From Acidimicrobiia bacterium (GTDB taxonomy: Bacteria > Actinomycetota > Acidimicrobiia > IMCC26256 > JAOSJL01): DNA of 64,000 nt. The stretch covers positions 979,178 through 1,043,177 of the forward strand of contig JAWKJA010000002.1 of assembly GCA_041394025.1 (NCBI GenBank). The letters run 5' to 3'. This document shows, piece by piece, positions 3,176-62,806 of the stretch. Each line of letters begins with the position of its first letter. Position 1 is the stretch's first letter. The translations under genes and the position numbers were made by a program. The notes below the pieces were generated by a model, which worked only from the letters and a program-made list of their open reading frames with translations, was not told the DNA's origin and searched no databases.

Positions 3176-3195
3176 CCTCCGGACCCAGCAGACCC

Positions 3196-9346: not shown

Positions 9347-9373
9347 GTGTTCCTCCTGTCCTGGCCGCCCGTC

Positions 9374-9400
9374 GAATCCGTTAGATAGGCTGACGGATTC
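9374..9400. promoter_or_regulatory. Inverted repeat GAATCCGT-N11-ACGGATTC in a divergent promoter region
   Basis: Exact 8-bp arms at 9374-9381 and 9393-9400, between the SDR (minus strand) and E1-alpha (plus strand). It contains the 10-mer ATCCGTTAGA, which is also found at 33956-33965. Confidence 0.35.
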
Positions 9401-9441
9401 ATCGTCGGAACGTCAAGTGACGGCCTCGCGGGGAACTCGGC

Positions 9442-11904: not shown

Positions 11905-11956
11905 AACCGCTCACTTCGTTGGATGATTGAGGTGGGATCAGCCTACGCTCCGCGGC

Positions 11957-29567: not shown

Positions 29568-29587
29568 GTTGGTTCCGGTCGGGCGGA

Positions 29588-31620: not shown

Positions 31621-31633
31621 GGCGCTCCTCGGC

Positions 31634-36363: not shown

Positions 36364-36397
36364 TCGCCTCTCCCCGGTCGTTCGTCCTTCAGTTGCG

Positions 36398-39890: not shown

Positions 39891-39984
39891 CGGTCGGATG
39901 CGAATCAGGTAGCGAAGTTATATCATCACTCCCTACGCCCGGCGACCGGGCCGCGCGTGATCACGCCACCCGGGGGGGAATCCG

Positions 39985-49571: not shown

Positions 49572-50501
49572 GTGACGTCGGCGCCCAGCCTGCGGGACGC
49601 GGGAAAGGTCTACGTCGAGGTCGGTCTCAACGAGGTTGCGTCGAAGGATCGCAACGCCAACATCCCGTACGGCCCCGACGAAGTGGCGGCGGACGCGATC
49701 GCGTGCGCGCAGGCCGGCGCATCCGTGATCCACTTCCACGCCCGCCACGGCGACGGTACGCAGGCGTGGACCGACGACGGTGTCTACCGGCGGGCGATGG
49801 AGCTCATCGCCGAGGAGGCGGACCTCGTCACCTACCCCACCTATCCGCCCCGCGTCGACCGGGAGGAGCGGTACCGCCACCTGTGGGCGCTGGCCGACGA
49901 GCCCTCGACGGCCCCGCTGGAGCTGGCGCCGATCGACATCGGCTCGCGCAACGTGTCGTTGTGGGAGCCAGACAAGCAGCGGTTCGCGCCCCTCGGGATC
50001 CTGCCGGCCGAGAGCCAGGTGGCGCTCAACCCTCCCGACGAGATCGAGTGGGTCATCGCCCGGGCCGCCGAGCGTGGACTGCATCCCACGCTGGGCGTCT
50101 TCGACATGACGTATCTTCGGTACTCGATCCACGCGCTCTGGGCGGGCCTGCTGAAACCTCCTCTGCTCCTCAAGTGGTTCCTGTCGGAACGGTGGGTCGG
50201 CGGCACGTTCCCCACCCCCGCGGGACTCGACGCCTACCTTTCCCAGGTTCCCGACGGCGTGGATCACGAGGGGCTCGTGGTGCCCTACGCGATGTCGAAA
50301 GCCGACGACGTCGAAACCCTGTGGAGGCACGGCCTCGAGCGCGGTCAGAACATCCGCGTCGGTATCGGCGACAACCCGGAGGCCTTTGCCACATCCACGA
50401 ACACCGAGCTCGTGGAACGCGCCGTGGAGCTCATCGCCGGTTACGGCCTGAGACCGGCGACGGCCGACGACGTCAGGAACCGCCTCGGCCTCCGGGTTTG
50501 A
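49572..50501 (+). CDS. Beta-keto acid cleavage enzyme (BKACE/DUF849, 3-keto-5-aminohexanoate cleavage enzyme family)
   Basis: 309 aa. GLNEVASK...PYGPDEVAADAIACAQAGASVIHFHAR is the BKACE N-terminal signature. GTG start 7 nt after the SBP stop. Confidence 0.8.
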   Translation: MTSAPSLRDAGKVYVEVGLNEVASKDRNANIPYGPDEVAADAIACAQAGASVIHFHARHGDGTQAWTDDGVYRRAMELIAEEADLVTYPTYPPRVDREERYRHLWALADEPSTAPLELAPIDIGSRNVSLWEPDKQRFAPLGILPAESQVALNPPDEIEWVIARAAERGLHPTLGVFDMTYLRYSIHALWAGLLKPPLLLKWFLSERWVGGTFPTPAGLDAYLSQVPDGVDHEGLVVPYAMSKADDVETLWRHGLERGQNIRVGIGDNPEAFATSTNTELVERAVELIAGYGLRPATADDVRNRLGLRV

Positions 50502-50505
50502 TGCG

Positions 50506-51294
50506 TCAGTGAACGTCGGTCACGTAGGCGTCGACCATCTCGAGGAGTCCGGTCTCCAGACCGGGATCGTCGGTCAGGGGCCCGGTGACGGCGGCGGTAG
50601 CCGCCTCGCGTGGCGGTACACCGGCCGCGATCAGCCGACCCGCCGCGATGAGCACCCGGGTGGAAGCCACCTCCCGTAGACCGCTGCTCTCGAGCTTCCG
50701 GATGGCCTGCGCCAGTGCCACGAGCTCGGCCGGCCGGGTGCCGTCGAGGCCCGTCTCGTGCGCGACGACCTTCTCCTCCACCTCGGGCGGCGGGAAGCCC
50801 AGCTCGATGGAGATCATGCGCTGGCGTGTCGAGTCCTTGAGATCCTTCAGGACGCTCTGGTAGCCGGGGTTGTAGCTGACCACGAGCCCGAAGCCGTCGG
50901 CCGCACGCAGCGTCTCCCCCCGTCGCTCGAGCGGCAGCTCCCGACGGTGGTCTGCGAGGGGATGCAGCACGACGGTGGTGTCCTGGCGGGCCTCGACGAT
51001 CTCGTCGAGGTAGCAGATCGACCCCGACCGGACGGCGGTCGTGAGTGGGCCGTCGACCCACTCGGTGTCCCCACCCTTGAGCAGGAAACGACCGACCAGG
51101 TCGGCGGCCGTGAGATCCTCGTGGCAGGCGACCGTGATCAACGGGCGACCCACATCATGCGCCATCGCTTCGATGAACCGCGTCTTGCCGCATCCGGTGG
51201 GACCCTTGAGCAGGATGGTCAAACCCTGTTCGTGGGCGGCCACGAAGATGCGCTCCTCGTTTCCCACGGGCTCGTAGTAGGGGCGTCCGGGCAC
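50506..51294 (-). CDS. CbbQ/NirQ/NorQ-type MoxR-class AAA+ ATPase
   Basis: GTG at 51294, 1 nt after the upstream stop. LLKGPTGCGKTRFIEAMA (Walker A), ICYLDEIVEA (Walker B), VVSYNPGYQ and LKDSTRQRM. 262 aa. Confidence 0.85.
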   Translation of the reverse strand: MPGRPYYEPVGNEERIFVAAHEQGLTILLKGPTGCGKTRFIEAMAHDVGRPLITVACHEDLTAADLVGRFLLKGGDTEWVDGPLTTAVRSGSICYLDEIVEARQDTTVVLHPLADHRRELPLERRGETLRAADGFGLVVSYNPGYQSVLKDLKDSTRQRMISIELGFPPPEVEEKVVAHETGLDGTRPAELVALAQAIRKLESSGLREVASTRVLIAAGRLIAAGVPPREAATAAVTGPLTDDPGLETGLLEMVDAYVTDVH

Positions 51295-51295
51295 G

Positions 51296-54013
51296 TCAGG
51301 CGCCTTTCTCGACGACACGGATCGTGCCGGTGTCGCCGTCGACCTCCACAGTCTGGCCGTCGTGCAACACGCGCGTGGCGTTCTCGGTGCCGACAACGCA
51401 CGGCACGCCGAACTCCCGGGCCACGACGGCCGGATGCGACAGAACGCCCCCCACGTCAGTCACGACGGCCCCCGCGAAGGCGAAGAGCGGGGTCCAGCCG
51501 GTGTCGGTGATGTGGGCGACGAGGACGTCGCCCGGGTCGAGATCGTCACTGACGTCGGTGAGAATGCGGACCCGACCTCGCACCGTTCCCGGTGACGCCG
51601 GTATTCCGCTCACGGCGGAGCCCTCAGCCGTGTCGGGATCGTCGGATTCGTCGACCCCGGCCGCGTCGGTGTCCCAGATGCCGGTGAAGTGATTGGGCAT
51701 CCTCAGCGCGGCGAGCCGCTTCCGCTCCTCGCGTCGGCGGGCGATGGTGTCGGCGCCGACCGCCGTGGACGCGAGCAGCTCCCGGTACGACAGGTAGAAG
51801 ACGTCCGATGGGTCGACGAGGGCGCCGAGAGCCACCAGCCTCCGGGCGCGCTCCCGAACAGCACGTCGCAATCCATGGGTGAGTCGGACGATCGGGTCAC
51901 GGGCCTGCTCGCGCTGACGCATGGCGTTGTTCATCATCCGTGCGGCGATCCGTTCCCGTAGTGCGCGCCGAGTCGCGGGCGGCGTGGAGGCAGGGGTCGG
52001 CGCTTTGACAGCCTTGATGACCGAATCGAGGAGGAGAACCGGCCGATCCGAGAACATTTCGTTCTCGAGCTCGGTCTCGCCGGGTCCACGGTGTCCGTAG
52101 CGTTCGACCAGGTCCTCGAACCACGTAGCGAACTCGCTGAGGCCGTCGACGGGTTCGCCGTCGTCTCCTGCACCACCCGTCGGGCGGTCTCCGGGTCGGA
52201 TGGCTGCCAGCACCTCCTCCGGTGAGCGTGTCGTGAGGAACGAGCCGAGCTGCCGACACCGGGCTGCCAGGTCTGCGAGTCGCCTCACACCGACCAGGGC
52301 ACCGGCACTCTGGAGGTCGTCGACCCCGCCGCGCTCGAGGTCGAACGCCTCGACACCCGAGATCTTCTCCGCCGCCGACTGTGCGCCGGCGGCGATCATG
52401 TTGGAGATGCACGCCACGTTCCAGGCCTGGCACAGCTCGTCGTGCAGGAGCTCGATGTGGGCGAGGAGCTCGGCATCCTCTTTGGCGCCCAACTCGTCGG
52501 GCGATGCGGGAAGCGTCGCGGCCTCGCGTTCGGAACGTCCGATCTCCCCTCGGAACCCCAGCAGCTTCGGGCCCGTGTGCGCCAACAGACGCAACGAGTC
52601 GAGTGCCTCCGACAGAGACATCGACGACGCCTCCCGGTTCGCGTGGTGGATACCCAGGAACTGCTCGTCGATGTCCTCGGGCGACATACCCGGCATCGCG
52701 GCGGCCATCTCGCGAACGACCGAGACGTTGGCGTAGATCCTGTGACCGAAGCTTCCGGCGCCCCGACCGCGCTGGGCATGCGCGATCTCGTCTCTCAGGT
52801 CGAGGAAGTCGACCATGCCGTCGCTCGCGGCGAGCATGGCGTCGAGAGAAACCGACAGCGACAGCGGTGTCATCGGGCCCGGAAACGCCTCGGAAAGGTT
52901 GGTGGCCGAGTAGGTGGGATACGTCGGGTCGATCGGGCTGTCGAACTCACCTCTGAGCTCTGCGGGTGCCGCGTCGGCCAGCCCGGCGTCGGTCGACGCA
53001 TCCGATCCATCCGGACCGTCATACGGAGGAAGATCGCGTGGAGGGTTCGTATCGACGTACGCAAGGCGCCAGGGGAGGTCGATGCGGTGAGGACCGATGT
53101 AGACGGTACGCGAGAGCACCCGGGCCAGGTCTTCGAGAGCCTCGCGCCCGGTCCACGCGCACTGGAAATCCCACTCCTCCCGCAGCCGCTTGTCGTCGAG
53201 CACGGGCATCCACCGGTACCCGGCGAGTGACGGAGGGTCCATCTCGATCAGGTTGTACTTCCAACCGATTTCGACCACCCGCTGCATCGCGGACAGCGGA
53301 ATCTCAACGACCTTCTTGCCCAGAATCCCTGCTATCTCGGGAATGGTCATCCCGCCGTCGGGCGGCGCCACGTTCACGACCCCGGTGCGGTCGCTCAAGA
53401 TCGCCTCGGCGTGGAACCGGCCGATGTCCTCGTCGTGCATGAACTGCCAGACCGGCGTTTCTCCTTTCGCCGACATCAGAACGGGAGTGGCGAACATGCG
53501 GAACTCGTAGTTGTCGAGATGTCGACCTGCGGCCGGTGAGCTGCGGGTCACGACGGACGGGACACCTGCGTCGGCGATGAGTCCCTCCACCTCGGCCTTG
53601 TGCGCCGCGTAGTAGATGTCAGGTGCCGGGCGAAGCGGATCCGACTCGGTGAACACGGGCGGGTTGTCGGGATGGGATCCGTAGACCGTGGCCGACGACG
53701 AGAACACGATGCGGGGGCAGCCTGTTGCCTCCATGGCCCGCAGCACGTTGGTGCTCCCACCGATGTTGACGTCGCGGGTCTCCTCCTCGGTGCGAAGCGG
53801 CGTGACAGCCCATGCCAGGTGCACGACCACATCGGCGCCGACCATTGCCTTCTCGACGGCCTCGGTGTCACGGATGTCGGCGCTGACGAACTCCACTCCG
53901 GGGACGGTGACATCGCGTCGCGCCATGGCCACGACGTCCACGCCTTCCCGGACGAGACGCGTGCAGATGTCACGGCCGAAGACGCCGCTGGCACCCGTGA
54001 CGAGGACCCTCAT
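51296..54013 (-). CDS. Tri-partite fusion protein: extended-SDR (NAD-dependent epimerase/dehydratase-like), rifampin-phosphotransferase-like helical region and PEP-utilizer swivel phosphohistidine domain
   Basis: 905 aa. The N-terminus has MRVLVTGASGVFG and YYAAHK (YxxxK). The middle has TNLSEAFPGPMTPLS. The last 103 aa carry GIPASPG...VTDVGGVLSHPAVVAREFGVPCVVG, with the His codon at 51434-51436. Confidence 0.8.
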   Translation of the reverse strand: MRVLVTGASGVFGRDICTRLVREGVDVVAMARRDVTVPGVEFVSADIRDTEAVEKAMVGADVVVHLAWAVTPLRTEEETRDVNIGGSTNVLRAMEATGCPRIVFSSSATVYGSHPDNPPVFTESDPLRPAPDIYYAAHKAEVEGLIADAGVPSVVTRSSPAAGRHLDNYEFRMFATPVLMSAKGETPVWQFMHDEDIGRFHAEAILSDRTGVVNVAPPDGGMTIPEIAGILGKKVVEIPLSAMQRVVEIGWKYNLIEMDPPSLAGYRWMPVLDDKRLREEWDFQCAWTGREALEDLARVLSRTVYIGPHRIDLPWRLAYVDTNPPRDLPPYDGPDGSDASTDAGLADAAPAELRGEFDSPIDPTYPTYSATNLSEAFPGPMTPLSLSVSLDAMLAASDGMVDFLDLRDEIAHAQRGRGAGSFGHRIYANVSVVREMAAAMPGMSPEDIDEQFLGIHHANREASSMSLSEALDSLRLLAHTGPKLLGFRGEIGRSEREAATLPASPDELGAKEDAELLAHIELLHDELCQAWNVACISNMIAAGAQSAAEKISGVEAFDLERGGVDDLQSAGALVGVRRLADLAARCRQLGSFLTTRSPEEVLAAIRPGDRPTGGAGDDGEPVDGLSEFATWFEDLVERYGHRGPGETELENEMFSDRPVLLLDSVIKAVKAPTPASTPPATRRALRERIAARMMNNAMRQREQARDPIVRLTHGLRRAVRERARRLVALGALVDPSDVFYLSYRELLASTAVGADTIARRREERKRLAALRMPNHFTGIWDTDAAGVDESDDPDTAEGSAVSGIPASPGTVRGRVRILTDVSDDLDPGDVLVAHITDTGWTPLFAFAGAVVTDVGGVLSHPAVVAREFGVPCVVGTENATRVLHDGQTVEVDGDTGTIRVVEKGA

Positions 54014-54040
54014 GGACGGATCGGTCCGGTGTCCACGTGG

Positions 54041-55177
54041 CTACTTCTCTCCTGCCGTGTCGGCCAGTGCCTCGAGGCGTTCGACCGTGTCGGCGAACCC
54101 CTCGATGAGTTCCAGCATCACTCGCCGGGCGGGCTTCACGGAATTCATACTGCCCACGACCTGACCCACGAAGTAGTTGGCGAGCTTCTCGGCGCCCGAA
54201 CCCGGTGTCGTCGAGGCACGGGCGATGCGAGCGCGTGCATCGTCGACCAGCATCGGCTGGAGCGGCATCGGTAGAGGGCCGGGCGACTCATCAGACTCCC
54301 ACTCGTCGGTCCACGCGGTGCGCAGCTGCCGGGCCGGCTTGCCGGTGATGGACCGCGAACGCACGGTGTCACCACTCCCGGCTGCGAGGAACTTGTCCTT
54401 GACGACCGGGTGGGTCTCGGCCTCCTCGGTGGTCAGCCAGACCGAGCCGGTCCACACTCCCTCGGCACCCAGTGCCAGGGCCGCAGCAACCTGCCGGCCG
54501 TCGCCGATGCCACCGGCCGCGAGCACCGGGACGGGGGCCACCTCGTCGACGACCTCGGGAACGAGGACCATCGTCGAGATCGTTCCCGTGTGCCCACCGG
54601 CCTCGTATCCCTGGGCGACGATGATGTCGGCACCGACCTGGGCGTTGCGCGCGGCATGCGCCCGGGTCCCGGCAAGTGCGGCGACCGGGATGTCGCGTGC
54701 GTGCGCCTCCTCGATCATCATCGGTGGCGGTGGGCCGAGGGCGTTGGCGATCAGACGGATCGGGTGTGCGAAGGCGATGTCGGCCAGTTGTCCCACCCGC
54801 TCGTGGGCGACAGTCATCTTCGCGAAGCTCTGCTCGACGACACCCTCGGGTATCTCCGGCACCTCGTAGCGCTCGAGGAGATCGCCGAGAAACGCCCGGT
54901 GCTCATCGGGAATCAGCTCCGCGAGGGCCGTCGGGTCGAGGTCGGATTCGTCGCCCACGTAGCTGGCGGGGAAGAGCAGGTCGACGCCGAACGGTCGGCC
55001 CCCGACCTCACCCTCGATCCAGTCGAGCTCCACCTCCAGCTCCTCGGGAGTGAGAGCGGTGGCACCGAGAACGCCCATGCCACCGGCGTTGGTGACCGCC
55101 GCCACCACGTCACGGCAGTGGCTGAACGCCAGGATCGGGAACTCGATACCCAGCATGTCGCGGACTGTCGTGTTCAC
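54041..55177 (-). CDS. Nitronate monooxygenase/FMN-dependent NAD(P)H oxidoreductase (NMO family)
   Basis: 378 aa. LGIEFPILAFSHCRDVVAAVTNAGGMGVLG, and GYEAGGHTG and AAGGIGDGRQ motifs. GTG preceded by GGGAGG. Confidence 0.85.
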   Translation of the reverse strand: MNTTVRDMLGIEFPILAFSHCRDVVAAVTNAGGMGVLGATALTPEELEVELDWIEGEVGGRPFGVDLLFPASYVGDESDLDPTALAELIPDEHRAFLGDLLERYEVPEIPEGVVEQSFAKMTVAHERVGQLADIAFAHPIRLIANALGPPPPMMIEEAHARDIPVAALAGTRAHAARNAQVGADIIVAQGYEAGGHTGTISTMVLVPEVVDEVAPVPVLAAGGIGDGRQVAAALALGAEGVWTGSVWLTTEEAETHPVVKDKFLAAGSGDTVRSRSITGKPARQLRTAWTDEWESDESPGPLPMPLQPMLVDDARARIARASTTPGSGAEKLANYFVGQVVGSMNSVKPARRVMLELIEGFADTVERLEALADTAGEK

Positions 55178-55256
55178 GGTGCCTCCCGGGGGAATCGCGA
55201 TAAGTCTAAATGATTATGCTGCTTCCATCTCAGGCACGAAACGGAGCCGCGACCCC

Positions 55257-56792
55257 ATGACCGACCCCCGCAGCCTCACCCTCGGCGACGTCCTGCGCGA
55301 GCACCGTCGGAGCCGCCCAGGGAAGACAGCCACCGTCGACGGGGATGTGCGGCACACATGGCCCGAGCTCGACGACCGCGTCAACCGGCTCGCCAACGCC
55401 CTGAACGCCGACGGCTTCGCTGCGGGAGACCGGATCCTGTGGCTGGCGCAGAACTCGTCGCGTCTTCTCGAAGCGCTCCTCGCTACCGCGAAGCTCGGCG
55501 GGATCTGCTGTCCGGTCAACTGGCGCCAGTCCCCCGAGGAGCTGACCTTCGTGATCGACGACGTAGAGGCTCACACGGTCCTGTGGCAGGAGGCAGAGAT
55601 CGGCGACTCCGTGCGTGTGGGTCGTGAGCGCGCGTCGTCATCGTCACGCTGGGTACAGCTGGACTCTGCCACCGATCCGAACTCAGACGAGTACGAGGCT
55701 CTCCTGGGCGACGCGTCTCCGACTGACCCGGACCTCGACGTCGACCCAGCCACCCCCGTTCTCGACGTCTACACAGCGGCGTTCGAGGGACGGCCCAACG
55801 GCGCCCTGCTCGACCACACGGCCATCGTGACCCAGAGTGTGCTCATGGCGATGCTCCAGGGCGTCGACCACGAGTACCGGTATCTCAACTGCGGGCCGAT
55901 GTTCCACGTCGGTACGCTCATGCTCACCCTCGCCACCTTCCAGATGGGTGGTGTGAACGTCTTCACCCCGCGTGTCGACGCGGAGGAGCTCTGCCGTCTC
56001 ATCGACTCCGAGCGGTGCACCGGGGCCTTCCTGCGCCCGCCGACGATCGCCCAGATCGTGGAGGTCAACGCCGATCGACGCTACGACCTCTCGTCGCTGC
56101 GGGCCAATCCCGGTCCGGACGCCTGGAACGAGATGGTCACCCTCGACACATCACCGCGCGCCCGCCACCGTGGTGGCTACGGCCAGACCGAGGTCATGGG
56201 GCTCATCACGTTCGGGGCGCTCGGTCCCGGGACCGGCAACGCCGGACGTCCCTCACCCTTCGCTCAGGTCAGGATCGTGGATCCCGAGGGAAACGAGGTC
56301 GCCACCGGGGAGACCGGTGAGATCGTCGTGCGCGGCCTCACCGTCATGGTCGGTTACGACCGCCGGCCCGAGCTCAACGACCGCCGGCAGCGCGGTGGGT
56401 GGCACCACACGAACGACCTCGGTGTCCGCGAGGCCGACGGGACGATCCGCTTCGTCGGACCCATGACCCGGATCGTCAAGTCGGCGGCGGAGAACATCTA
56501 CCCCGCCGAGGTCGAGGCGGCCCTGAAGCGCCACGACGCCGTGGCCGACGCAGCGATCATCGGTGTGCCCGATGAGAAGTGGGAGCAGAGTGTGAAGGCC
56601 ATCATCGTTCTGGAGGATGGCAGGTCGGTCACCGCCGAGGACCTCATCGAACACTGTCGCTCGACGATCGCGTCGTACAAGAAGCCGCGCACGGTGGAGT
56701 TCGTCGACGCACTGCCGAAGCGGGGGAACGAGACCGACTACGACGCCCTCGACGCGCAGTTCGGCGGCGGCGGCTACCCCGGTGGGGACTGA
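55257..56792 (+). CDS. ANL-superfamily acyl-CoA synthetase/AMP-dependent ligase
   Basis: ATG at 55257. GYGQTE, GEIVVRG, WHHTNDLG, ENIYPAEVE and SYKKPRTVEFVDALPK motifs. The P-loop position reads YTAAFEGRPNGA instead of the TSGTTGxPKG type. 511 aa. Confidence 0.85.
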   Translation: MTDPRSLTLGDVLREHRRSRPGKTATVDGDVRHTWPELDDRVNRLANALNADGFAAGDRILWLAQNSSRLLEALLATAKLGGICCPVNWRQSPEELTFVIDDVEAHTVLWQEAEIGDSVRVGRERASSSSRWVQLDSATDPNSDEYEALLGDASPTDPDLDVDPATPVLDVYTAAFEGRPNGALLDHTAIVTQSVLMAMLQGVDHEYRYLNCGPMFHVGTLMLTLATFQMGGVNVFTPRVDAEELCRLIDSERCTGAFLRPPTIAQIVEVNADRRYDLSSLRANPGPDAWNEMVTLDTSPRARHRGGYGQTEVMGLITFGALGPGTGNAGRPSPFAQVRIVDPEGNEVATGETGEIVVRGLTVMVGYDRRPELNDRRQRGGWHHTNDLGVREADGTIRFVGPMTRIVKSAAENIYPAEVEAALKRHDAVADAAIIGVPDEKWEQSVKAIIVLEDGRSVTAEDLIEHCRSTIASYKKPRTVEFVDALPKRGNETDYDALDAQFGGGGYPGGD

Positions 56793-59416
56793 CCGTCGTC
56801 CACCACCCGCACGATCCCCGCATCGCCGTCGACCTCGACGATCTGGCCGTCGGTGAGCCGTCGCGTCGCGTCGGCGGCACCGACGACGCAGGGAATCCCG
56901 TACTCACGGGCGACGATCGCCGGGTGCGACATCAGCCCGCCCACATCCGTGACGACGGCAGATGCCATCGCGAAGAACGGAGTCCAACCGGTGTCCGTCA
57001 CGTGGGTGACGAGGACGTCTCCGGGCTCGAGTTGATCGCCGGAGTCGACGATCCGCGCCGGTCCCTGGGCCCGCCCCGGCGCGGCTGCGATCCCGCGCAC
57101 CTCACCGCACTCGGTTGACTCGTCGGGCTCGGGTGTCGCCGACCCTCCGAGCGCCGCCTCGGACCATGAGCGGGTGAACATCGACGGCATCGAATAGTCA
57201 CGCAACCGTTCCCGCTCGGCGCGGCGACGTACGACACGGTCAGCTGCATCGGAGGGCGGGGTGAACGCCTCGTCGACCGCCAGGTACCAGATGTCGTCGG
57301 GCTCGGGGAGCGTCCCACCGGCTGCCAGGCGACGCCCCTGCTCACGCAGGGCCTTGCGCAACTCGTGTGTGAGGCGCACTGTGGTGTCCCGAATGTCCTC
57401 ACGCATCGACAGGAGCGAGGTTGCCAGACGTTCAACCGCTCCCCGACGACCGGGCGACAGGGTCCCGCTCGATGGAGTGTCCGCCGTCTTCACGATCACG
57501 TCGAGAAGTCGGTCGGGGGTGTCGTCGAAGACATCGTTGGCCAGTTCGAGCTCACCCGGTCCACGGTGACCCACTTGCCGCCGCAACTCGGCGAACTCCC
57601 GGGCGAACCCGGGATCCCGGTCGTCGAGACGCTTCACGCGCTCCTCTGGTGGGGTGTCGTCCAACCAGCCTTTCAACGCGGGCGCTGCGCGGAGATGGTC
57701 GGCCAGCACTTCCACGCCTGCGATCGCGTTGGCACTGGCCAGACCGTCGTCGCCGACATGCAGCGCACCCACGGCCTCGGGGCCGCGGAGTCGCTCGACA
57801 GCGGACACGGCGGCACCGGCGACAGGGTTGGCGATGATGACGGCGGCCCAGCACTGGGCGAGCTCGTCGCGCAGCACGCCGACACGCGCCTCCAGTCCGG
57901 CATCGCTGAGCTCTTCGAGCACATCTGTGCCCACGACCAACGTGTCGACCCGCCCCGCCAACCGCCGTCCCTCACCGCGGAGCCCGATCACGGGCGGTGC
58001 CGTGCGCCCGACGATACGAAGCGCCGTGAGCACCTCGCGGGGAGTCATCGCGGGCCGCTCGAAGTCCTCCGGCACGGGAATTCCGAGGTACTGGCTGTCC
58101 ATGTCCTCGGGCGTGATCCCCGGGAGCCCCTCGGTCGTCTCACGGGCGAGCGACACGTTGAGGTATATGTGGTGCCCGAACACGGACACCATGCGGACCG
58201 TCGCCTCGTGACGAACCTCGCCCGACATTCCCAGGAAGTCGACGAGATAGGTCTGACCCGCCCGTAGCGCGCTGATCGACACGGTCACCGACATCGGTGT
58301 GAGCGGCCCGGGAAACGCCTCCGACAGATTCGTGGCGGTGAAGACGTCGAAGTCGGGGTGAACCGCGTCGTCGAACTCCCCCGCCACCCCCTCGGGAGCC
58401 GCGGGAAGGAGGTCACCGCCGTCGAGACGCGGCCAGTTGCCCGGTGGTGGCTCCACCCACGGCAGACGCCGCCGCCGTGGAACTCGGTAACGACCCACGT
58501 AGGTGCTGCGCGTGAGGGAACGTGCGGCGTCACGGGCGGTCTCGGCGCTGGTCCACGCGCACCGGAAGCCCCATTCTTCGCGCAGACGCGTGGTGTCGAC
58601 GACGGGCATGTACCGGAGCCCGTCGTAGGCAGCCGGATCCATCTCGGTGACACCCAACGCCGCCATCACCCCGACCATCCCGGTGGCGACACATTCGGGG
58701 AGCCGCGGCGTCGGCCGCTCGACAAGTTCGCCGAGCTCCTCGGGGCTCAGGACGTCATCGGCGGCCAGGTTGACCGTGCCGGTCCGGGGGGAGATGGCAG
58801 CCTCGGCGAGAAAGCGGCCGACGTCCTCCTGGTGGACGAGCTGCCAACGGTTCGTGTCACCCCGCACCGCAGGGAACACGGGTCCTGCAAACTGCTGTGT
58901 GACCGCGTTGTCGATTCCGCGCCCCAGTGTCGCCGCCACCCTCGCCACGACGGCGTCGACGTCTGCGGCAGCGATGAGATCCTCTACCTCCATCTTGTGG
59001 TGCGCGTACTCGAAGGCGGGATCAGGTCGCGGTTGGTCGTCTTCCCGGAAGGGCGCGGGATGGTGACGCGCACTCCCGTAGACGGTGACCGAAGAGGCGA
59101 ACACCAGACGCCGGCAACCGGTGCTCTCCATGGCGGCCAGGACGTTCGCGCTCCCACCGACATTGATGTCACGGGTGTCGGCGGTCTCGCCGGCGGCACT
59201 CATCATCCAGGCCAGGTGCACAACGGCGTCGCATCCCAGGAGCGCTGACGCCACACTGGCGGCGTCGGCAACGTCCCCGGCGATGAAGCCGACTCCCGGC
59301 GGGAGGGACACCGGCTCGTGGCGTGCCAGAGCGACCGGATCGGCACCCAGCCGGGTGAGCCGACGGGCAACGGCGCGACCGAACGCCCCCGTTCCACCCG
59401 TTACCAGGACCCGCAT
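56774..59416 (-). CDS. Second SDR / RPH-like / PEP-utilizer swivel fusion protein, paralog of 51296..54013
   Basis: ATG at 59416. MRVLVTGGTGAFG, EYAHHK, TNLSEAFPGPLTPMS and VTDVGGLMSHPAIVAREYGIPCVVG (His codon 56924-56926). 880 aa. Its start lies 16 nt inside the upstream VWA gene. Confidence 0.8.
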   Translation of the reverse strand: MRVLVTGGTGAFGRAVARRLTRLGADPVALARHEPVSLPPGVGFIAGDVADAASVASALLGCDAVVHLAWMMSAAGETADTRDINVGGSANVLAAMESTGCRRLVFASSVTVYGSARHHPAPFREDDQPRPDPAFEYAHHKMEVEDLIAAADVDAVVARVAATLGRGIDNAVTQQFAGPVFPAVRGDTNRWQLVHQEDVGRFLAEAAISPRTGTVNLAADDVLSPEELGELVERPTPRLPECVATGMVGVMAALGVTEMDPAAYDGLRYMPVVDTTRLREEWGFRCAWTSAETARDAARSLTRSTYVGRYRVPRRRRLPWVEPPPGNWPRLDGGDLLPAAPEGVAGEFDDAVHPDFDVFTATNLSEAFPGPLTPMSVTVSISALRAGQTYLVDFLGMSGEVRHEATVRMVSVFGHHIYLNVSLARETTEGLPGITPEDMDSQYLGIPVPEDFERPAMTPREVLTALRIVGRTAPPVIGLRGEGRRLAGRVDTLVVGTDVLEELSDAGLEARVGVLRDELAQCWAAVIIANPVAGAAVSAVERLRGPEAVGALHVGDDGLASANAIAGVEVLADHLRAAPALKGWLDDTPPEERVKRLDDRDPGFAREFAELRRQVGHRGPGELELANDVFDDTPDRLLDVIVKTADTPSSGTLSPGRRGAVERLATSLLSMREDIRDTTVRLTHELRKALREQGRRLAAGGTLPEPDDIWYLAVDEAFTPPSDAADRVVRRRAERERLRDYSMPSMFTRSWSEAALGGSATPEPDESTECGEVRGIAAAPGRAQGPARIVDSGDQLEPGDVLVTHVTDTGWTPFFAMASAVVTDVGGLMSHPAIVAREYGIPCVVGAADATRRLTDGQIVEVDGDAGIVRVVDDGQSPPG

Positions 59417-61158
59417 CTCTTCTCCCGTCGTTGGTCGGCCGACCGTATCGCCTGCCGGAAGAGACGGCCGAGGTCGCCGCGTATCATGTCGACATCGGGC
59501 GCACGGGCGTGCGCCGACGTGCCGAAGACGCGTTGCAGCGCGGCGGCATCGGTCCGACCTCCGATCGACAGGCACAGGCAGCCGATTCCGTTGCGTCGCG
59601 CCTCGGCGAGCGCGCGACGGGCATCCGCCTCCCCGTAGGTTCCCTCGTACCCGTCGTCGTAGGCGAAGCCGTCCGAGAGGACGACGAGGAGGCGTTGCTC
59701 CGTCCCACCGTGTGTCTCGAGGAGGTGGGATCCATGGCGCACGGCGGCACCGAGACGCGTGTACGAACCCGGCTCGAGAACAGCGAGACGGCGGAGCGTC
59801 TCGGCACCGTAGTGGTCGTCGAAGGTCTTGACCCGCACCATGTGGACGGCGGAACGACCCCGGGACCGGAAGCCGTAGGCCGCCACGCGGTCTCCCAGAC
59901 TCGCCAGTGCGTCGAGCAACCTGGCCGCGGCGGCACGCTGGTGGTCGTGGACCGAGCGGCCGGCGGGGCTGCGCTCCGCTCCCGACCCCGAGATGTCGAG
60001 GAGTACCAGGACCGACAGGTCGCGCCGGGTCCGCAGGTTCTCGAGGTACACGTCCTCGTCGATCTCCTGGGGCACGTCGACGTCACGGGCCGCAGCGTGA
60101 CCGACGGCCAACTCCACCTGCCGGTCGACGACCGCGTCGAGATCCAGATCGTCGCCCTGCGGTCGACGCCGGTTTCGCTGCAAGCCGACGCCCAGGCGCG
60201 CCAGGCGCCTGCGCAGCACATCGTCGGACGCCGATCCGAGGTCGCGGGGAGGCCGGTCGTGCGGCGGCTCCACCTCCACGACGGTGCACCAGCCTGGCCT
60301 GTAGCGCCTCTTGTGAGCGTTCCACTCGGGGTACACGGCGTGCCCCGGGACGAGCGGCTGCTCGGCCACCGTGGGATCGACGGGGACGAGCGACACCACG
60401 GCGTGCTTGCCCCGCCGCGCGACCGCGCGGCCCCTGCCCGTGGGCAGTTCGGCACCCGCCGGGCCGGAGCCCTCCTCGCGTCCGAGCCCCAGCACCTTGT
60501 GGAGAAGCCTCGCCACCGGCCCCCGGCCACCGACCGGCGCGCTGAACTTCTCGGCCACCCTTCCCGGGTCCTGAGTCTCCTCGCTCTCGTCGAGATCGGG
60601 CAGGTCGTCGTCGCGTGGACTCCTCCGGAGATCTTGGCGGGTCGGGACCCCACCGTCGTCGCCGCGGTCGCGACGCAGCACACGGCGCGGGCGAATGGTC
60701 CCCCACTCCGGTGGTGGGTCGGGCACCGTCGGGTCGCCCAGCGCGGTCTCGAGTGACTCCTCGGGGCTCCGTGTGACGGGGATGCCCTCGGGCGTCGGGA
60801 TTCGCACACCGGGAGGGAGTCCGCCCCCGGCCGCCAAGCGGCACGACTCGAGCGCCAGGTAGCGGCTCGTGACCCGGGGGTGCCCCGACAGGCGTTTCAG
60901 GATCGGGCGGTCCAGGGAGTGACCTCCCAGCAGTGCCGCCTGTGCCGCGACCTCCGCGCGGGTGCCCGGCCACCCGGCGGCAGGGTCGGGCGACACGAAG
61001 ATCGTCGCTCCGTCGGTGAAGGGTGCCTCCCCCTCCCGATGGGGCGCGACCTCGACCGGGCGGCCGGCGAGCGCCGACGCCAGGAGCCGGTAGCGCTCGC
61101 TCTCGACCCCGGGCCGCGCTCGCTCGGGGATATCGTCGGTGTCGTCGGATACGGGCAC
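59401..61158 (-). CDS. NorD/CbbO-type von Willebrand factor A (VWA) domain protein
   Basis: 585 aa. YPEWNAHKRRYRPGWCTVVE (the NorD/CbbO YxEWD...WC block) and a C-terminal VWA domain with MIDAS LLDISGSG. GTG start. Confidence 0.8.
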   Translation of the reverse strand: MPVSDDTDDIPERARPGVESERYRLLASALAGRPVEVAPHREGEAPFTDGATIFVSPDPAAGWPGTRAEVAAQAALLGGHSLDRPILKRLSGHPRVTSRYLALESCRLAAGGGLPPGVRIPTPEGIPVTRSPEESLETALGDPTVPDPPPEWGTIRPRRVLRRDRGDDGGVPTRQDLRRSPRDDDLPDLDESEETQDPGRVAEKFSAPVGGRGPVARLLHKVLGLGREEGSGPAGAELPTGRGRAVARRGKHAVVSLVPVDPTVAEQPLVPGHAVYPEWNAHKRRYRPGWCTVVEVEPPHDRPPRDLGSASDDVLRRRLARLGVGLQRNRRRPQGDDLDLDAVVDRQVELAVGHAAARDVDVPQEIDEDVYLENLRTRRDLSVLVLLDISGSGAERSPAGRSVHDHQRAAAARLLDALASLGDRVAAYGFRSRGRSAVHMVRVKTFDDHYGAETLRRLAVLEPGSYTRLGAAVRHGSHLLETHGGTEQRLLVVLSDGFAYDDGYEGTYGEADARRALAEARRNGIGCLCLSIGGRTDAAALQRVFGTSAHARAPDVDMIRGDLGRLFRQAIRSADQRREKRCGSW

Positions 61159-61244
61159 ACGATCTCCGGTGGCGCGGGTACGGGACCGATATCGTATATT
61201 CCGTCAGATGATTGGAGTGCCCGGCCGGGCCTCCCGGGGGGCGC

Positions 61245-62039
61245 ATGGCACCACTGCTCGAAACCAGCGATCTCTCGGTGACCTTCGGCGGGCTCCACGC
61301 CCTCGACGACGTCTCGCTCACCGTCGAGGAGGGCTCCTTCGTCGGCCTCATCGGCCCCAACGGCGCCGGCAAGACGACCTTCGTCGACGCCATCACCGGC
61401 TTCGTTCCGTACCGGGGTGAGGTCCGCTTCGCCGAGCGGGCCCTCGTCCGGGCGCGCCCTCACCGGCGAGCCGCCGCCGGGCTCGTGCGCACCTTTCAGT
61501 CCCTCGAGCTCTTCGACGACCTCACCGTGCGCGAGAACCTGCTCGTCAGTCACGAGAAGCCGATGTGGTGGTCGATGTTCGTCGACGCTGTGCGGCCCCG
61601 GTCGGGCCTGTCGGACCCGGACGTGAACGGGGCCCTCGAGTTGCTCGACCTCACCGATGTGGCCGATCGCATGCCCACGGAGCTTCCGCACGGTGTCCGT
61701 AAGTTGGTCGGCGTCGGGCGTGCGCTCGCAGGCGATCCCAGGCTCCTGGTCCTCGACGAGCCTGCCGCCGGCCTCGACTCGGAGGAGAGCATCGAGCTGG
61801 GTGAGCGCCTGAAGACCCTCACGGAGCACGGCATCACGATCCTCATGGTCGACCACGACATGGCCCTCGTTCTCGGGGTGTGCGACCCGATCTGGGTCCT
61901 CGACTTCGGGAAGGTCATCGGATGTGGCCCGCCGAACGCCATCCAGCGCGACCCGGCTGTCGTTGCCGCGTACCTCGGTGAGCAGGGCGGGTCCCCCGCC
62001 GACGACCCTGCCCCCACCACGGGGACGACCCCGGCGTGA
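61245..62039 (+). CDS. LivG-like ABC transporter ATP-binding protein with no adjacent permease
   Basis: ATG at 61245 within the track ORF starting at 61212. GPNGAGKTT, LVLDEPAAGLD and LMVDHDM motifs. Confidence 0.85.
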   Translation: MAPLLETSDLSVTFGGLHALDDVSLTVEEGSFVGLIGPNGAGKTTFVDAITGFVPYRGEVRFAERALVRARPHRRAAAGLVRTFQSLELFDDLTVRENLLVSHEKPMWWSMFVDAVRPRSGLSDPDVNGALELLDLTDVADRMPTELPHGVRKLVGVGRALAGDPRLLVLDEPAAGLDSEESIELGERLKTLTEHGITILMVDHDMALVLGVCDPIWVLDFGKVIGCGPPNAIQRDPAVVAAYLGEQGGSPADDPAPTTGTTPA

Positions 62040-62806
62040 GCCACACCGGCACACCGCCTGGTCCGGGGCCCTCCCGCCCACAACACGAAGGACTCGACGG
62101 GCGCGTCCTGCATGTCGACGGCCTGACAGCCGGCTACGACGGTGTCCCCGTCGTCCGCGACGTTTCGCTTCACGTCGGTGCGGGCGAGGTCGTCGCTCTC
62201 CTGGGCCCCAACGGTGCCGGCAAGACAACGACGCTCCTGTCGATCTCGGGCCTGATCGCCCCGATGGGCGGCACGATCACGGTTGTCGGTGGGCCGGCGT
62301 CGACACGTCGGCCCTACGTGACGGCACGTCGGGGTGTCGCCCACGTCCCGGAGGACCGCTCGCTCTTCTTCGGGCTGAGTGGCCGTGAGAACCTGCGTCT
62401 CGGCACGCGGGGATCCCGGGTCGACATCGATGATGCCCTCGAGTTCTTTCCGGCGCTCGAGCCTCATCTCCGCAAGCGAGCGGGGTTGCTGTCGGGAGGC
62501 GAGCAGCAGATGCTGGCACTCGCGCGTGCGCTCGTGGGACGCCCCAAGCTCCTCATGGTGGACGAGATGAGTCTGGGGCTTGCTCCCATCATCGTGGAAC
62601 ATCTCGTCCCGGTGTTGCGCGACGTCGCCGAGAAGACCGGCACCGGCGTCCTGGTCGTGGAGCAACACGTCCACGTCGCCCTCGAGGTGGCCGACCGCGC
62701 CTACGTCATGAACAAGGGCGGTATCGAGATCGAGGGAACAGCCATGGAGCTGTCGACCGCCACCGACCGGCTCGAGGCCAGCTACCTCGGTCGTAGCGGC
62801 TTCTGA
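62036..62806 (+). CDS. LivF-like ABC transporter ATP-binding protein with no adjacent permease
   Basis: GTG at 62036 overlaps the upstream stop (GTGA). GPNGAGKTT, LSGGEQQ and LMVDEMSLGLAP motifs. Confidence 0.85.
   Translation: MSHTGTPPGPGPSRPQHEGLDGRVLHVDGLTAGYDGVPVVRDVSLHVGAGEVVALLGPNGAGKTTTLLSISGLIAPMGGTITVVGGPASTRRPYVTARRGVAHVPEDRSLFFGLSGRENLRLGTRGSRVDIDDALEFFPALEPHLRKRAGLLSGGEQQMLALARALVGRPKLLMVDEMSLGLAPIIVEHLVPVLRDVAEKTGTGVLVVEQHVHVALEVADRAYVMNKGGIEIEGTAMELSTATDRLEASYLGRSGF

What the first reader, a model, noticed from the sequence alone, without database searches (positions are those of the whole stretch)
50506..61158. A split CbbQ/NorQ-type AAA+ ATPase and NorD/CbbO-type VWA partner, each coupled to one copy of a large paralogous fusion enzyme, with no Rubisco or nitric-oxide reductase
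What the sequence shows:
- The Q-type ATPase (50506..51294) starts 1 nt after the stop of fusion protein 1 (51296..54013).
- The O/D-type VWA protein (59401..61158) ends 16 nt inside the start of fusion protein 2 (56774..59416).
- The two halves of a normally paired remodelling machine therefore sit in two different minus-strand transcription units, each welded to one paralog.

Established background: Q/O and Q/D pairs act as AAA+ plus VWA-MIDAS adaptor machines on a specific client. CbbQO acts on Rubisco and NorQD on NorB iron-site assembly. CobST and BchID are the chelatase analogues.

Inference: no known client is encoded here, so the two ~900-aa fusion proteins are the obvious candidate clients or partners. 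That would make this a Q/O-type activase or metal-insertion system for a previously undescribed enzyme.
Basis: partly seen in the sequence, partly recalled or inferred. Interest (0 to 1): 0.85.

Follow-up and report, generated by a model that had tools for sequence, protein, structure and literature searches.

The report
Split NorQ/NorD chaperone pair, client unknown
A genuine NorQ/NorD-type ATPase-plus-adaptor pair really is split here and joined to two copies of a large Rv2047c-like enzyme, but related genomes suggest the pair serves a conserved membrane-protein module rather than those enzymes.

Summary
On the minus strand, Q (50506-51294) starts 1 nt after the Fus1 stop. D (59401-61158) overlaps the Fus2 start by 16 nt. 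The two fusions are 45% identical. No NOR or Rubisco gene was found among the ORFs scanned across the 64 kb.

- **Q and D:** Q is a bona fide NorQ/CbbQ (E 4e-93 to solved NorQ). D is NorD-type, with an intact MIDAS motif (E 7e-35 to solved NorD).
- **Fusions:** they belong to the Rv2047c family: an extended SDR, a rifampin-phosphotransferase-like helical domain and a phosphohistidine swivel domain. They have no ATP-grasp domain.
- **Evidence that the fusions are clients is weak.** Only 13 of 48 full-length fusion loci have Q within 10 kb.
- **The orthologous pair occurs without a fusion.** In four other Actinomycetota, pairs with Q 74-75% and D 48-50% identical head a conserved fusion-free operon: D-Q-cytoplasmic PBP-AveC-like membrane protein-SDR-ALDH-P450.
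- **In this lineage D and Q bracket 8-17 kb of catabolic genes.** Fus1-type→Q coupling is conserved in five loci. D→Fus2-type adjacency is seen only in the window and one close relative.

Most likely this is a rearranged lipid/terpenoid-type cluster. Q/D probably serves a shared component, with the AveC-like membrane protein the best candidate. A fusion client is not excluded.

The parts
50506..51294 (-). Q: NorQ/CbbQ-type MoxR AAA+ ATPase (262 aa). It is the last gene of the NMO-Fus1-Q unit.
   Evidence: AAA_5 and CbbQ_C. E 3.7e-93 to solved NorQ 9qhd and 1.5e-87 to CbbQ 5c3c. Walker A, Walker B and the H2-insert GRxLLxxxxT motif are present (motif as described in PMC13036017).
51296..54013 (-). 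Fus1: Rv2047c-family fusion enzyme (905 aa). Domains: extended SDR (1-~315), RPH-like helical substrate domain (~365-780), phosphohistidine swivel domain (~795-905, His860).
   Evidence: Pfam Epimerase and PEP-utilizers. NCBIfam PRK05865 matches end to end at 484 bits, below the 1509-bit cutoff. AF2 model has pLDDT 92 and pTM 0.94. Foldseek top hits are rifampin phosphotransferase 5fbu/5hv1 at E ~3e-21 over ~620 columns, plus GalE-like SDRs. Motifs GxxGxxG, Y135xxxK, GHRGPGE and GGVLSH are present.
54041..55177 (-). NMO/FabK-like FMN oxidoreductase. It is the first gene of the NMO-Fus1-Q unit.
   Evidence: Pfam NMO at 2.7e-53. The orthologous NMO lies upstream of the Fus1-type gene in L081, L082 and L002.
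55050..56792 (+). Acyl-CoA synthetase (start codon uncertain). It is convergent with Fus2 (19-nt 3' overlap) and separates the two minus-strand units.
   Evidence: AMP-binding and AMP-binding_C. The same convergent ACS follows the Fus2-type gene in L083, L170 and L174.
56774..59416 (-). Fus2: paralog of Fus1 (880 aa, ~45% identical) with the same three-domain architecture.
   Evidence: Y137xxxK, GHRGPGELE, GGLMSH. Fus2-type orthologs at 55-57% identity occur in L082, L083 and L170.
59401..61158 (-). D: NorD-type VWA/MIDAS adaptor (585 aa). Layout: N-terminal domain, charged linker, finger region, C-terminal VWA.
   Evidence: Residues 262-571 match solved NorD 9qhd_G at E 7e-35. 33-36% identity to NorD genes on denitrifier plasmids. 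MIDAS DISGS...T...D is present. More than 1,300 homologs, many named NorD by their sources.
49572..50501 (+). BKACE (beta-keto acid cleavage enzyme), convergent with Q.
   Evidence: Pfam BKACE at 1.9e-49. It holds the same position next to Q in L002 and L081, and lies one gene away in L084.
39982..41103 (+). AveC-like polytopic membrane protein. A member of this family accompanies the D/Q subfamily in every sampled genome where enough flank was held. It is the best alternative client candidate.
   Evidence: Pfam AveC_like at 2.6e-54. AF2 pLDDT 92.9, with no PDB fold match. It lies two genes after Q in the canonical operons L167, L169, L171 and L173 and is divergent from D in L084.
41177..42415 (+). 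Lipoprotein Peripla_BP_6 solute-binding protein. It is followed by Liv-type ABC permease/ATPase genes (42491-45897).
   Evidence: Pfam. Lipobox LAAAAC.
61212..62806 (+). LivG/LivF-type ABC ATPase pair, divergent from D. D also has an ABC ATPase gene or pair as its divergent upstream neighbour in relatives (directly in L170; with other genes between in L083 and L084).
   Evidence: Pfam ABC_tran and BCA_ABC_TP_C. L083, L170 and L084.

Best explanation
This is a rearranged actinobacterial catabolic cluster of the lipid/terpenoid type (P450s, SDRs, ALDH, ACADs, acyl-CoA ligase, BKACE, Liv-type uptake) in an Acidimicrobiia MAG.

**Q and D**
- They are a real NorQ/NorD-type machine: a Q hexamer, with the finger of the D VWA domain in its pore and the D MIDAS site gripping an acidic residue of a client.
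- They belong to an actinobacterial subfamily whose usual form is an operon: D-Q-cytoplasmic PBP-fold protein-AveC-like membrane protein-SDR-ALDH-P450.
- In this lineage D and Q have been separated by 8-17 kb of pathway genes. In the window those genes include two paralogous Rv2047c-family enzymes.

**Most likely client (inferred)**
- Q/D still serves a component common to all these clusters.
- By analogy with NorQD acting on membrane-bound NorB, the best candidate is the AveC-like polytopic membrane protein, or its PBP-type partner.

**The fusions (inferred)**
- They are pathway enzymes co-expressed with Q/D.
- An NAD(P)-dependent SDR step is coupled to phosphoryl transfer from a swivelling phospho-His to a hydroxyl of a hydrophobic substrate, as in rifampin phosphotransferase and as proposed for Rv2047c.
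- The phospho-His would have to be charged in trans, because the fusion has no ATP-grasp domain.

**Shown and inferred**
- Shown: gene identities, architecture, orthology and neighbourhoods.
- Inferred: the client, the chemistry and the substrate class.
For: **Identity of Q and D**
-.

**Conserved fusion-free operon**
- D-Q-Peripla_BP_6-AveC_like-SDR-ALDH/P450 occurred in 4 of 4 D homologs sampled outside the split lineage: L167 (M. aubagnense), L169 (Pseudofrankia), L171 (a MAG) and L173 (Mycolicibacter).
- Those Q proteins are 74-75% identical to the window's Q. That is as close as the Q proteins of split loci (70-80%).
- The D N-terminal domain (residues 1-150) is 37-42% identical to the canonical operons and 40-43% to split loci, so specificity has not obviously changed.

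**AveC-like protein**
- It is present in the window, in L002, L081 and L084, and in all four canonical operons.

**Fusions usually lack Q/D**
- 35 of 48 full-length fusion loci have no Q within 10 kb.
- L085 and L086, each annotated gene by gene, have no Q/D in ±10 kb.
- No Q/D partner is mentioned for Rv2047c itself, which sits in an operon with pks12 (PMC7058343, PMC2443190).

**Second actinobacterial D-Q subfamily**
- In the one locus examined in detail (L008), the pair is flanked by polytopic membrane proteins in its own operon. This fits a membrane-client theme.

**Fusion architecture**
-.
- No PPDK_N ATP-grasp occurs in the fusion or in the window.
- Stand-alone PPDK_N+PEP-utilizers genes lie near fusions in five other loci.
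Against: **Points favouring a link to the fusions**
- Fus1-type→Q coupling (a 1-nt gap or a 4-nt overlap) is conserved in five independent loci. Every sampled genome of the split lineage places fusions inside or next to the D...Q bracket.
- The D linker (residues 151-260) differs systematically. Split loci carry GPAGAELPTG, canonical operons carry PGADxPTHRT, and identity is 49-66% against 36-40%. The 2026 NorQD study reports that the NorD linker is remodelled and is essential for metal insertion, so this difference could mark a changed client.

**Weaknesses of the AveC-like candidate**
- In the window it lies 9 kb from Q and 18 kb from D.
- It is only 26-31% identical to the canonical-operon AveC-like proteins.
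- The cytoplasmic PBP of the canonical operon is absent from the split lineage.
- Its fold gave no hint of a metal site.

**Limits of the survey**
- The sample is small: seven split and four canonical genomes.
- It was seeded in a biased way. Split loci came mostly from fusion homologs; canonical loci came from D homologs.
- There are no experimental data.
Confidence: 0.42

Rival explanations
1. Fus1 and Fus2 are the direct clients of Q6-D. The machine acts as an activase, for example by releasing a tightly bound or mis-phosphorylated intermediate or by resetting the swivel domain. Alternatively it acts as an assembly factor for this enzyme family in this lineage.
For: - Fus1-type→Q translational coupling is conserved in the window, L002, L081, L082 and L084.
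- D lies directly upstream of the Fus2-type gene in the window and in L174.
- Every sampled genome of the split lineage keeps fusions within or beside the D...Q bracket.
- The D linker motif differs between split and canonical loci.
- A cytoplasmic PBP related to the canonical-operon PBP sits directly upstream of fusion genes in L007, L088 and L089. This links the two gene sets indirectly.
- Fusion genes also lie 1.4-8 kb from a second D-Q subfamily in eight Mycobacterium genomes.
Against: - 35 of 48 fusion loci lack Q within 10 kb.
- Orthologous D-Q pairs with an equally conserved N-terminal domain head fusion-free operons.
- D→Fus2 adjacency is not conserved in L083 or L170.
- Neither the SDR domain nor the RPH-like domains are known to need an inserted metal cofactor.
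- In L008, the one Mycobacterium locus examined in detail, the D-Q pair forms a separate opposite-strand operon with its own membrane proteins.
Confidence: 0.22
2. Q/D matures another enzyme of the cluster, with the fusions as bystanders. Candidates are a metal-dependent Amidohydro_2, the Zn-dependent BKACE, or a P450.
For: - Amidohydro_2 and P450 genes lie immediately after D in L083, L084 and L170.
- BKACE is convergent with Q in the window, L002 and L081.
- P450s occur in every canonical operon.
- MoxR/VWA pairs are typically metal-cofactor chaperones (PMC9976466).
Against: - No BKACE appears in any of the four canonical loci. Amidohydro_2 appears in only one of them (L169, about 8 kb away).
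- The P450s next to D in split loci are only ~32% identical to those of the canonical operons.
- P450s are not known to need such chaperones.
Confidence: 0.15
3. The genes are displaced parts of a classical NorQD or CbbQO system. Their NOR or Rubisco client would be encoded elsewhere in the genome.
For: - Q is highly similar to solved NorQ (E 3.7e-93).
- The rest of the 1.6 Mb contig and of the MAG could not be inspected.
Against: - No NOR or Rubisco gene appears among the window ORFs scanned or in any of the gene-by-gene annotated related loci.
- The pair belongs to a large actinobacterial subfamily with its own conserved non-NOR operon.
- Gene order is D then Q, the reverse of norQD.
- The D N-terminal domain is unrelated to the NorD N-terminus.
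Confidence: 0.03

Closest known systems
NorQ/NorD of Paracoccus denitrificans and Jhaorihella thermophila (FeB insertion into cNOR; PDB 9qh4-9qhg; PMC9976466, PMC13036017)
   Same: - Q aligns end to end with solved NorQ (E 3.7e-93) and shares Walker A/B, the H2-insert GRxLLxxxxT motif and the CbbQ_C domain.
- D has the NorD layout: N-terminal domain, charged linker, finger region and a C-terminal VWA with MIDAS. It matches solved NorD at E 7e-35.
   Different: - There is no norCB.
- Gene order in the subfamily is D then Q, and here the two genes are 8 kb apart.
- The D N-terminal domain has no detectable similarity to that of NorD.
- The client is unknown.
CbbQ/CbbO Rubisco activase (PDB 5c3c, 6l1q; PMC4660213)
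   Same: Q matches CbbQ at E 1.5e-87. The general design is the same: a Q6 ring plus one VWA adaptor.
   Different: - D is 585 aa. From memory, not checked here, CbbO is about 770 aa.
- D matches solved NorD but gave no CbbO hit. I did not check whether a CbbO structure is in the PDB set searched.
- No Rubisco is present.
- The setting is heterotrophic catabolism.
Rv2047c of M. tuberculosis (NCBIfam PRK05865; operon with pks12; PMC7058343, PMC2443190)
   Same: It has the same three-part architecture (extended SDR, helical domain, PEP-utilizers swivel His) and matches the model end to end.
   Different: - Fus1 scores 484 bits and Fus2 436 bits against a cutoff of 1509. Fus1 is about 35% identical to the mycobacterial homologs.
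- There is no pks12 neighbour.
- The gene is duplicated.
- The setting is catabolic rather than mycoketide biosynthesis.
Rifampin phosphotransferase RPH-Lm (PDB 5fbs/5fbt/5fbu/5hv1)
   Same: It is the top structural match over ~620 columns: the substrate-binding helical domain plus the C-terminal swivel His domain. The sequence match covers residues 684-901 at E 9e-31.
   Different: The N-terminal ATP-grasp domain of RPH is replaced by an SDR domain. The fusion therefore cannot charge its own histidine from ATP in the way RPH does.
Actinobacterial operon D-Q-Peripla_BP_6-AveC_like-SDR-ALDH-P450 (Mycolicibacterium aubagnense, Mycolicibacter heraklionensis, Pseudofrankia). My searches found no paper describing it.
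   Same: Q (74-75%) and D (48-50%, full length) are orthologous. An AveC-like protein, SDRs, an ALDH and P450s are also present in the window.
   Different: - In the window D and Q are separated.
- The cytoplasmic PBP is missing.
- The AveC-like gene heads a Liv-type ABC importer operon 9-18 kb away.
- Two fusion genes are interposed.

Membership tests
NorQ/CbbQ (MoxR AAA+, CGN subfamily) | Single AAA+ module of the AAA_5 type followed by a CbbQ_C lid domain | tested here: met
   AAA_5 at 1.1e-33 and CbbQ_C at 1.2e-26, both far above the Pfam cutoffs.
NorQ/CbbQ (MoxR AAA+, CGN subfamily) | Walker A, Walker B (D-E) and the H2-insert motif GRxLL/IxxxxT that contacts the VWA finger | tested here: met
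   GPTGCGKT, CYLDE and GRFLLKGGDT are present. The motif is defined in PMC13036017. I read sensor and Arg-finger candidates by eye from the sequence but did not formally map them.
NorQ/CbbQ (MoxR AAA+, CGN subfamily) | Close sequence relationship to experimentally solved NorQ/CbbQ | tested here: met
   9qhd_A at E 3.7e-93, 9qh4_A at 1.1e-87, 5c3c_A at 1.5e-87 and 6l1q_C at 1.3e-85, all aligned end to end.
NorQ/CbbQ (MoxR AAA+, CGN subfamily) | Hexameric ring with ATPase activity stimulated by the VWA partner | not testable with these tools
   Needs biochemistry or multimer modelling.
NorD/CbbO-type VWA adaptor | C-terminal VWA domain with an intact MIDAS (DxSxS...T...D) | tested here: met
   D-I-S-G-S, T in GSYTRLG and D in VLSDG, conserved across nine orthologs. 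The Pfam VWA_2 and VWA_CoxE hits fall just below their cutoffs.
NorD/CbbO-type VWA adaptor | Homology to NorD across the finger region and the VWA domain up to the C-terminal Q-contact | tested here: met
   Residues 262-571 align to 9qhd_G 342-644 of 646 at E 7.1e-35. Identity to NorD genes on denitrifier plasmids is 33-36%. The finger itself was not modelled.
NorD/CbbO-type VWA adaptor | Gene adjacent to its Q partner | tested here: not met
   In the window D and Q are 8.1 kb apart in different transcription units. Orthologs in L167, L169, L171 and L173 are adjacent, in the order D then Q.
Classical NorQD system | norC/norB (a heme-copper oxidase family client) in the locus | tested here: not met
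   No COX1-type or cytochrome c gene was found among the window ORFs scanned or in the annotated related loci.
Classical CbbQO system | Rubisco or carboxysome genes in the locus | tested here: not met
   None found in the same scans.
Rv2047c family (NCBIfam NF004520 / PRK05865) | N-terminal extended SDR (GxxGxxG, YxxxK), helical Rph_4th-type domain and C-terminal PEP-utilizers swivel His, matching the model end to end | tested here: met
   Model positions 1-839 of 854 are matched. Precomputed Pfam for the identical protein P0001 lists PF27448 (named Rph_4th in the listings) plus PF00391 and PF01370. Motifs are confirmed and the structure.
Rv2047c family (NCBIfam NF004520 / PRK05865) | Score above the equivalog cutoff (1509 bits) | tested here: not met
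   Fus1 scores 484.5 bits and Fus2 436.4 bits. They are family relatives, not equivalogs of Rv2047c.
Rifampin phosphotransferase (RPH) | N-terminal ATP-grasp (PPDK_N) domain that charges the swivel His | tested here: not met
   No PPDK_N hit. The AF2 model is almost entirely helical from 380 to 770. tblastn with a PPDK_N protein matches only the swivel domain.
Actinobacterial D-Q-PBP-AveC_like operon | D and Q adjacent, followed by a signal-less Peripla_BP_6 and an AveC_like membrane protein | tested here: not met
   The window has orthologous D and Q and a divergent AveC_like protein (28% identity). It has no ortholog of the cytoplasmic PBP, and the genes are dispersed.

The most novel reading that the evidence does not exclude
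In this Acidimicrobiia-centred lineage, a NorQD-type AAA+/VWA remodelling machine has been recruited to a new kind of client. That client would be the Rv2047c-family SDR-phosphohistidine-swivel enzymes, which lack their own ATP-grasp domain. Q6-D would then act as an activase or assembly factor for them. This would be the first soluble, non-Rubisco, non-metal-site client of the Q/D class. It would also give a handle on the unknown biochemistry of Rv2047c, which is essential in M. tuberculosis under mycobactin exposure.
Probability: 0.2. Interest if true: 0.75.

Novelty: new variant of a known kind. Interest (0 to 1): 0.55.

Why it matters
Only a few clients of Q-type MoxR/VWA machines are known: Rubisco, NorB, and more distantly CO dehydrogenase and the chelatases.

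- **An uncharacterised subfamily.** This locus belongs to a large actinobacterial NorQ/NorD subfamily. D has more than 1,300 detectable homologs, and dozens sit at ~48-50% identity. It works in heterotrophic lipid/terpenoid-type catabolism and has no known client.
- **Testable candidates.** Comparison across genomes narrows the candidates to two. One is an AveC-like membrane protein of unsolved fold. The other is the Rv2047c-family fusion enzymes.
- **Relevance to tuberculosis.** The Rv2047c family matters for M. tuberculosis physiology (mycoketide synthesis and mycobactin tolerance), but its biochemistry has not been determined.
- **Caveat.** The data do not show that the fusions are the clients.

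Tried and rejected
- **Mycobacterial D-Q pairs as independent support for a Fus-Q/D link: rejected.** Eight Mycobacterium fusion loci have a D-Q pair 1.4-8 kb away. In the three loci checked, the fusion follows a giant ORF of more than 3,300 aa whose position and size fit pks12; its domains were not scanned. In L008 the pair (Q 48%, D 29%) forms its own opposite-strand operon with two paralogous polytopic membrane proteins and a single-TM protein. It is absent from other Mycobacterium fusion loci.
- **The 426-aa gene upstream of Fus1-type genes in relatives is not the missing VWA partner.** It is a PaaK-like adenylate-forming ligase. The window has no copy.
- **The 898-aa ORF at 42491-45187 is not a third fusion paralog.** It is a fused Liv permease/ATPase.
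- **Plasmid searches gave no actinobacterial context.** The D query found only proteobacterial norD, and the Fus1 query found no full-length member.
- **Literature searches found no description of the operon.** I searched for AveC-like together with NorQ/NorD or P450 in Actinobacteria.
- **The promoter/terminator scan was uninformative.** It found 0 promoters and 1 terminator, no more than in shuffled sequence.
- **NCBIfam and Pfam gave nothing for several small unknown ORFs**.

Full report
**Source.** The window comes from an Acidimicrobiia MAG. Fus1 is 100% identical to an NCBI protein on a 1.6 Mb contig. GC content is 66-72%.

**Check of the observation**

- **Q (50506-51294, minus strand).**
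  - It carries AAA_5 and CbbQ_C.
  - It has Walker A GPTGCGKT, Walker B CYLDE and the H2-insert GRFLLKGGDT.
  - It aligns end to end with solved NorQ (E 3.7e-93) and CbbQ (E 1.5e-87).
- **Q start.** The long ORF in the list begins at 51396. The start at 51294 gives the normal 262-aa length and sits 1 nt after the Fus1 TGA, behind an AGAAAGG run.
- **D (59401-61158).**
  - Its Pfam VWA hits are just below threshold.
  - Residues 262-571 match solved NorD at E 7e-35.
  - It is 33-36% identical to norD genes on denitrifier plasmids.
  - The MIDAS residues are intact.
  - Its stop lies 16 nt inside Fus2, whose ATG at 59416 gives the family N-terminus MRVLVTGG.
- **Fus1 and Fus2.** They are about 45% identical over their full length.
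- **Transcription units.** A plus-strand acyl-CoA synthetase gene separates a D-Fus2 unit from an NMO-Fus1-Q unit.
- **No classical client.** Pfam scans of 40 of the larger ORFs spread across the window found no NOR or Rubisco. They found P450s, SDRs, an ALDH, ACADs, Amidohydro_2 genes, luciferase-like monooxygenases, amine oxidases, BKACE, Liv-type ABC systems and some purine-salvage genes. Some smaller ORFs and gaps were not scanned.

**What the fusion enzymes are**

- Both match NCBIfam PRK05865, the Rv2047c model, from end to end. They score far below its equivalog cutoff (484 and 436 bits against 1509).
- A 65-sequence alignment gave a confident AF2 model (pLDDT 92, pTM 0.94). It shows three parts:
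  - an extended GalE-like SDR (residues 1-~315);
  - a largely helical domain (~365-780);
  - a C-terminal swivel domain carrying the invariant His860.
- Foldseek's best hits are rifampin phosphotransferase structures over ~620 columns, followed by GalE-type SDRs.
- Invariant motifs include GxxGxxG, YxxxK, GHRGPGE.E and GGxxSH.
- There is no ATP-grasp domain in the fusion or anywhere in the window. The histidine must therefore be charged in trans.
- In five other fusion loci a stand-alone PPDK_N+PEP-utilizers gene lies nearby.
- Rv2047c is co-operonic with pks12 and is needed for growth with mycobactin. It has been proposed to release mycoketide reductively and then phosphorylate it, but this has not been shown biochemically (PMC7058343, PMC2443190).

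**Do fusion homologs neighbour Q and D?**

I collected 166 loci, of which 48 are full length, and searched them with tblastn.

- Q lies within 10 kb in 13 of the 48, and D in 11.
- Four of the 13 (L002, L081, L082, L084) are close relatives of the window, with fusions 52-56% identical to Fus1. In all four a Fus1-type gene is followed directly by Q. Where genes were called (L081, L082, L084) the overlap is 4 nt. The Fus1-type gene is usually preceded by a PaaK-like ligase.
- D is also in those clusters, but further away:
  - In L083 and L170 the order is D, Amidohydro_2, P450, TetR, SDR, LLM, then a Fus2-type gene.
  - In L084 it is D, Amidohydro_2, P450, TetR, PaaK-like, Fus1-type, Q.
  - Only L174 (D 75% identical) repeats the window's D→Fus2-type adjacency.
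- Eight of the 13 are Mycobacterium loci.
  - In the three I checked, the fusion follows a giant ORF of more than 3,300 aa whose size and position fit pks12. I did not scan its domains.
  - In L008 a more distant pair (Q 48%, D 29%) forms a separate opposite-strand operon. It is flanked by two paralogous polytopic membrane proteins and a single-TM protein.
- The other 35 loci show no Q or D. L085 (M. vicinigordonae) and L086 (a Mycolicibacterium locus next to a linalool-dehydratase-like gene) were annotated gene by gene.

**Where else does this D/Q pair occur?**

- D has more than 1,300 detectable homologs. Dozens are about 48-50% identical over 95% of its length, and many are named NorD by their sources.
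- I looked up four such homologs outside the split lineage. All four head the same operon: D, Q, a signal-less Peripla_BP_6 protein, an AveC_like membrane protein, an SDR, then ALDH and P450 genes.
  - The loci are L167 (M. aubagnense), L169 (Pseudofrankia), L171 (a MAG) and L173 (Mycolicibacter heraklionensis, next to an Mce operon).
  - None has a fusion gene in ±10 kb.
- Orthology to the window pair:
  - Q in these operons is 74-75% identical to the window's Q, within the range seen for split loci (70-80%).
  - The D N-terminal domain, thought to set target specificity in NorD (PMC9976466), is about as conserved against canonical operons (37-42%) as against split loci (40-43%).
  - The linker (residues 151-260) is the exception, at 36-40% against 49-66%. 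Its motif also differs: PGADxPTHRT in canonical operons and GPAGAELPTG in split loci.
- The window has an AveC-like gene (39982-41103) that heads a lipoprotein-PBP/Liv ABC operon. L002, L081 and L084 also have one, and in L084 it is divergent from D.
- The AveC-like protein models confidently (pLDDT 92.9) as a helical membrane protein. It has no PDB fold match.

**Interpretation**

- The simplest history is that an ancestral D-Q(-PBP-AveC) module and a fusion-containing catabolic block merged. D and Q now bracket 8-17 kb of pathway genes.
- The orthologous pair works without fusions in four other taxa, and most fusions work without Q/D. The fusions are therefore unlikely to be the general client.
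- A shared component is more likely. NorQD acts on membrane-bound NorB, and in L008 the second actinobacterial D-Q subfamily is also embedded among membrane proteins. By that analogy the AveC-like protein is the best candidate (confidence about 0.4).
I put it at about 0.2.
- A displaced NOR or Rubisco system is very unlikely (about 0.03).
- My samples are small, and they were seeded from fusion homologs or D homologs. The comparison is therefore indicative, not quantitative.

**Novelty**

- Q and D are clear members of the NorQ/NorD class by sequence. They fail the contextual criteria: adjacency in this window, and a NOR or Rubisco client.
- I file this as a new variant of a known kind: a NorQD-type pair in a catabolic, non-NOR setting, split by gene insertion, with the client undetermined.
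- I found no paper describing the canonical actinobacterial operon or any link between it and the Rv2047c family.

Noticed in passing
window 39982-41103 (+): An AveC-like polytopic membrane protein. Its AF2 model is confident (pLDDT 92.9), but there is no PDB fold match (best E 0.6). Invariant residues are W59, W150, P155, E222, C340 and C348. A member of this family accompanies this D/Q subfamily in every sampled genome where enough flank was held.
   Followed up: partly
L167 10001-19808; also L169, L171, L173: A conserved actinobacterial operon that I could not find described: NorD-like, NorQ-like, signal-less Peripla_BP_6, AveC_like, SDR, ALDH, P450. In Mycolicibacter it lies next to an Mce lipid-uptake operon.
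   Followed up: partly
L007 8877-10004, L088 8847-10004, L089 (~8910-9941): A Peripla_BP_6 gene 33-34% identical to the canonical-operon PBP lies directly upstream of the fusion gene. In my ORF calls it overlaps the fusion by 4 nt in L007 and by 16 nt in L088. I did not check it for a signal peptide. This is an indirect link between the two gene sets.
   Followed up: partly
L085 1943-3526 (-); L007 4292-5950 (+); also L005, L009, L093: A stand-alone PPDK_N+PEP-utilizers protein (527-552 aa) lies near fusion genes in five loci. It is a candidate in-trans ATP-grasp donor for the fusion's swivel His. The window has none.
   Followed up: partly
L081 8682-9962; L082 8733-10004; L084 8696-9982; L002 ~8662-9549: A PaaK-like adenylate-forming ligase (426 aa) lies immediately upstream of Fus1-type genes in relatives (a 4-nt overlap in L082, 18-38 nt gaps in L084 and L081). 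It is absent from the window, where the NMO gene abuts Fus1 instead.
   Followed up: partly
L008 12672-17207 (-): In a Mycobacterium locus where the fusion follows a giant pks12-like ORF, a distant D-Q pair is flanked by two paralogous ~240-aa polytopic membrane proteins and a 143-aa single-TM protein. None has a Pfam or NCBIfam match.
   Followed up: partly
window D residues 151-260 (about 60379-60708): The D linker motif differs by lineage: GPAGAELPTG in fusion-containing loci and PGADxPTHRT in canonical operons. The NorD linker is reported to be essential for metal insertion, so the missing His may matter.
   Followed up: no
window 42491-45187 (+): An 898-aa single ORF that fuses two Liv-type permease domains with a LivG-type ATPase.
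   Followed up: no
window 3115-4200, 11927-12904, 35215-36414: Two inosine-uridine nucleoside hydrolases and an adenosine deaminase are scattered among the lipid-type catabolic genes. A sulfatase lies at 28026-29807.
   Followed up: no
window 45913-46881 (-), 62898-63500 (+), 30748-31713 (-): ORFs with coding-like GC3 but no Pfam match. The first two also have no NCBIfam match; the third was not tried there.
   Followed up: no
L086 1-1293 (-): A linalool dehydratase/isomerase (Ldi) family gene lies about 9 kb from a fusion gene in a Mycolicibacterium. This hints at terpenoid substrates for the fusion family.
   Followed up: no
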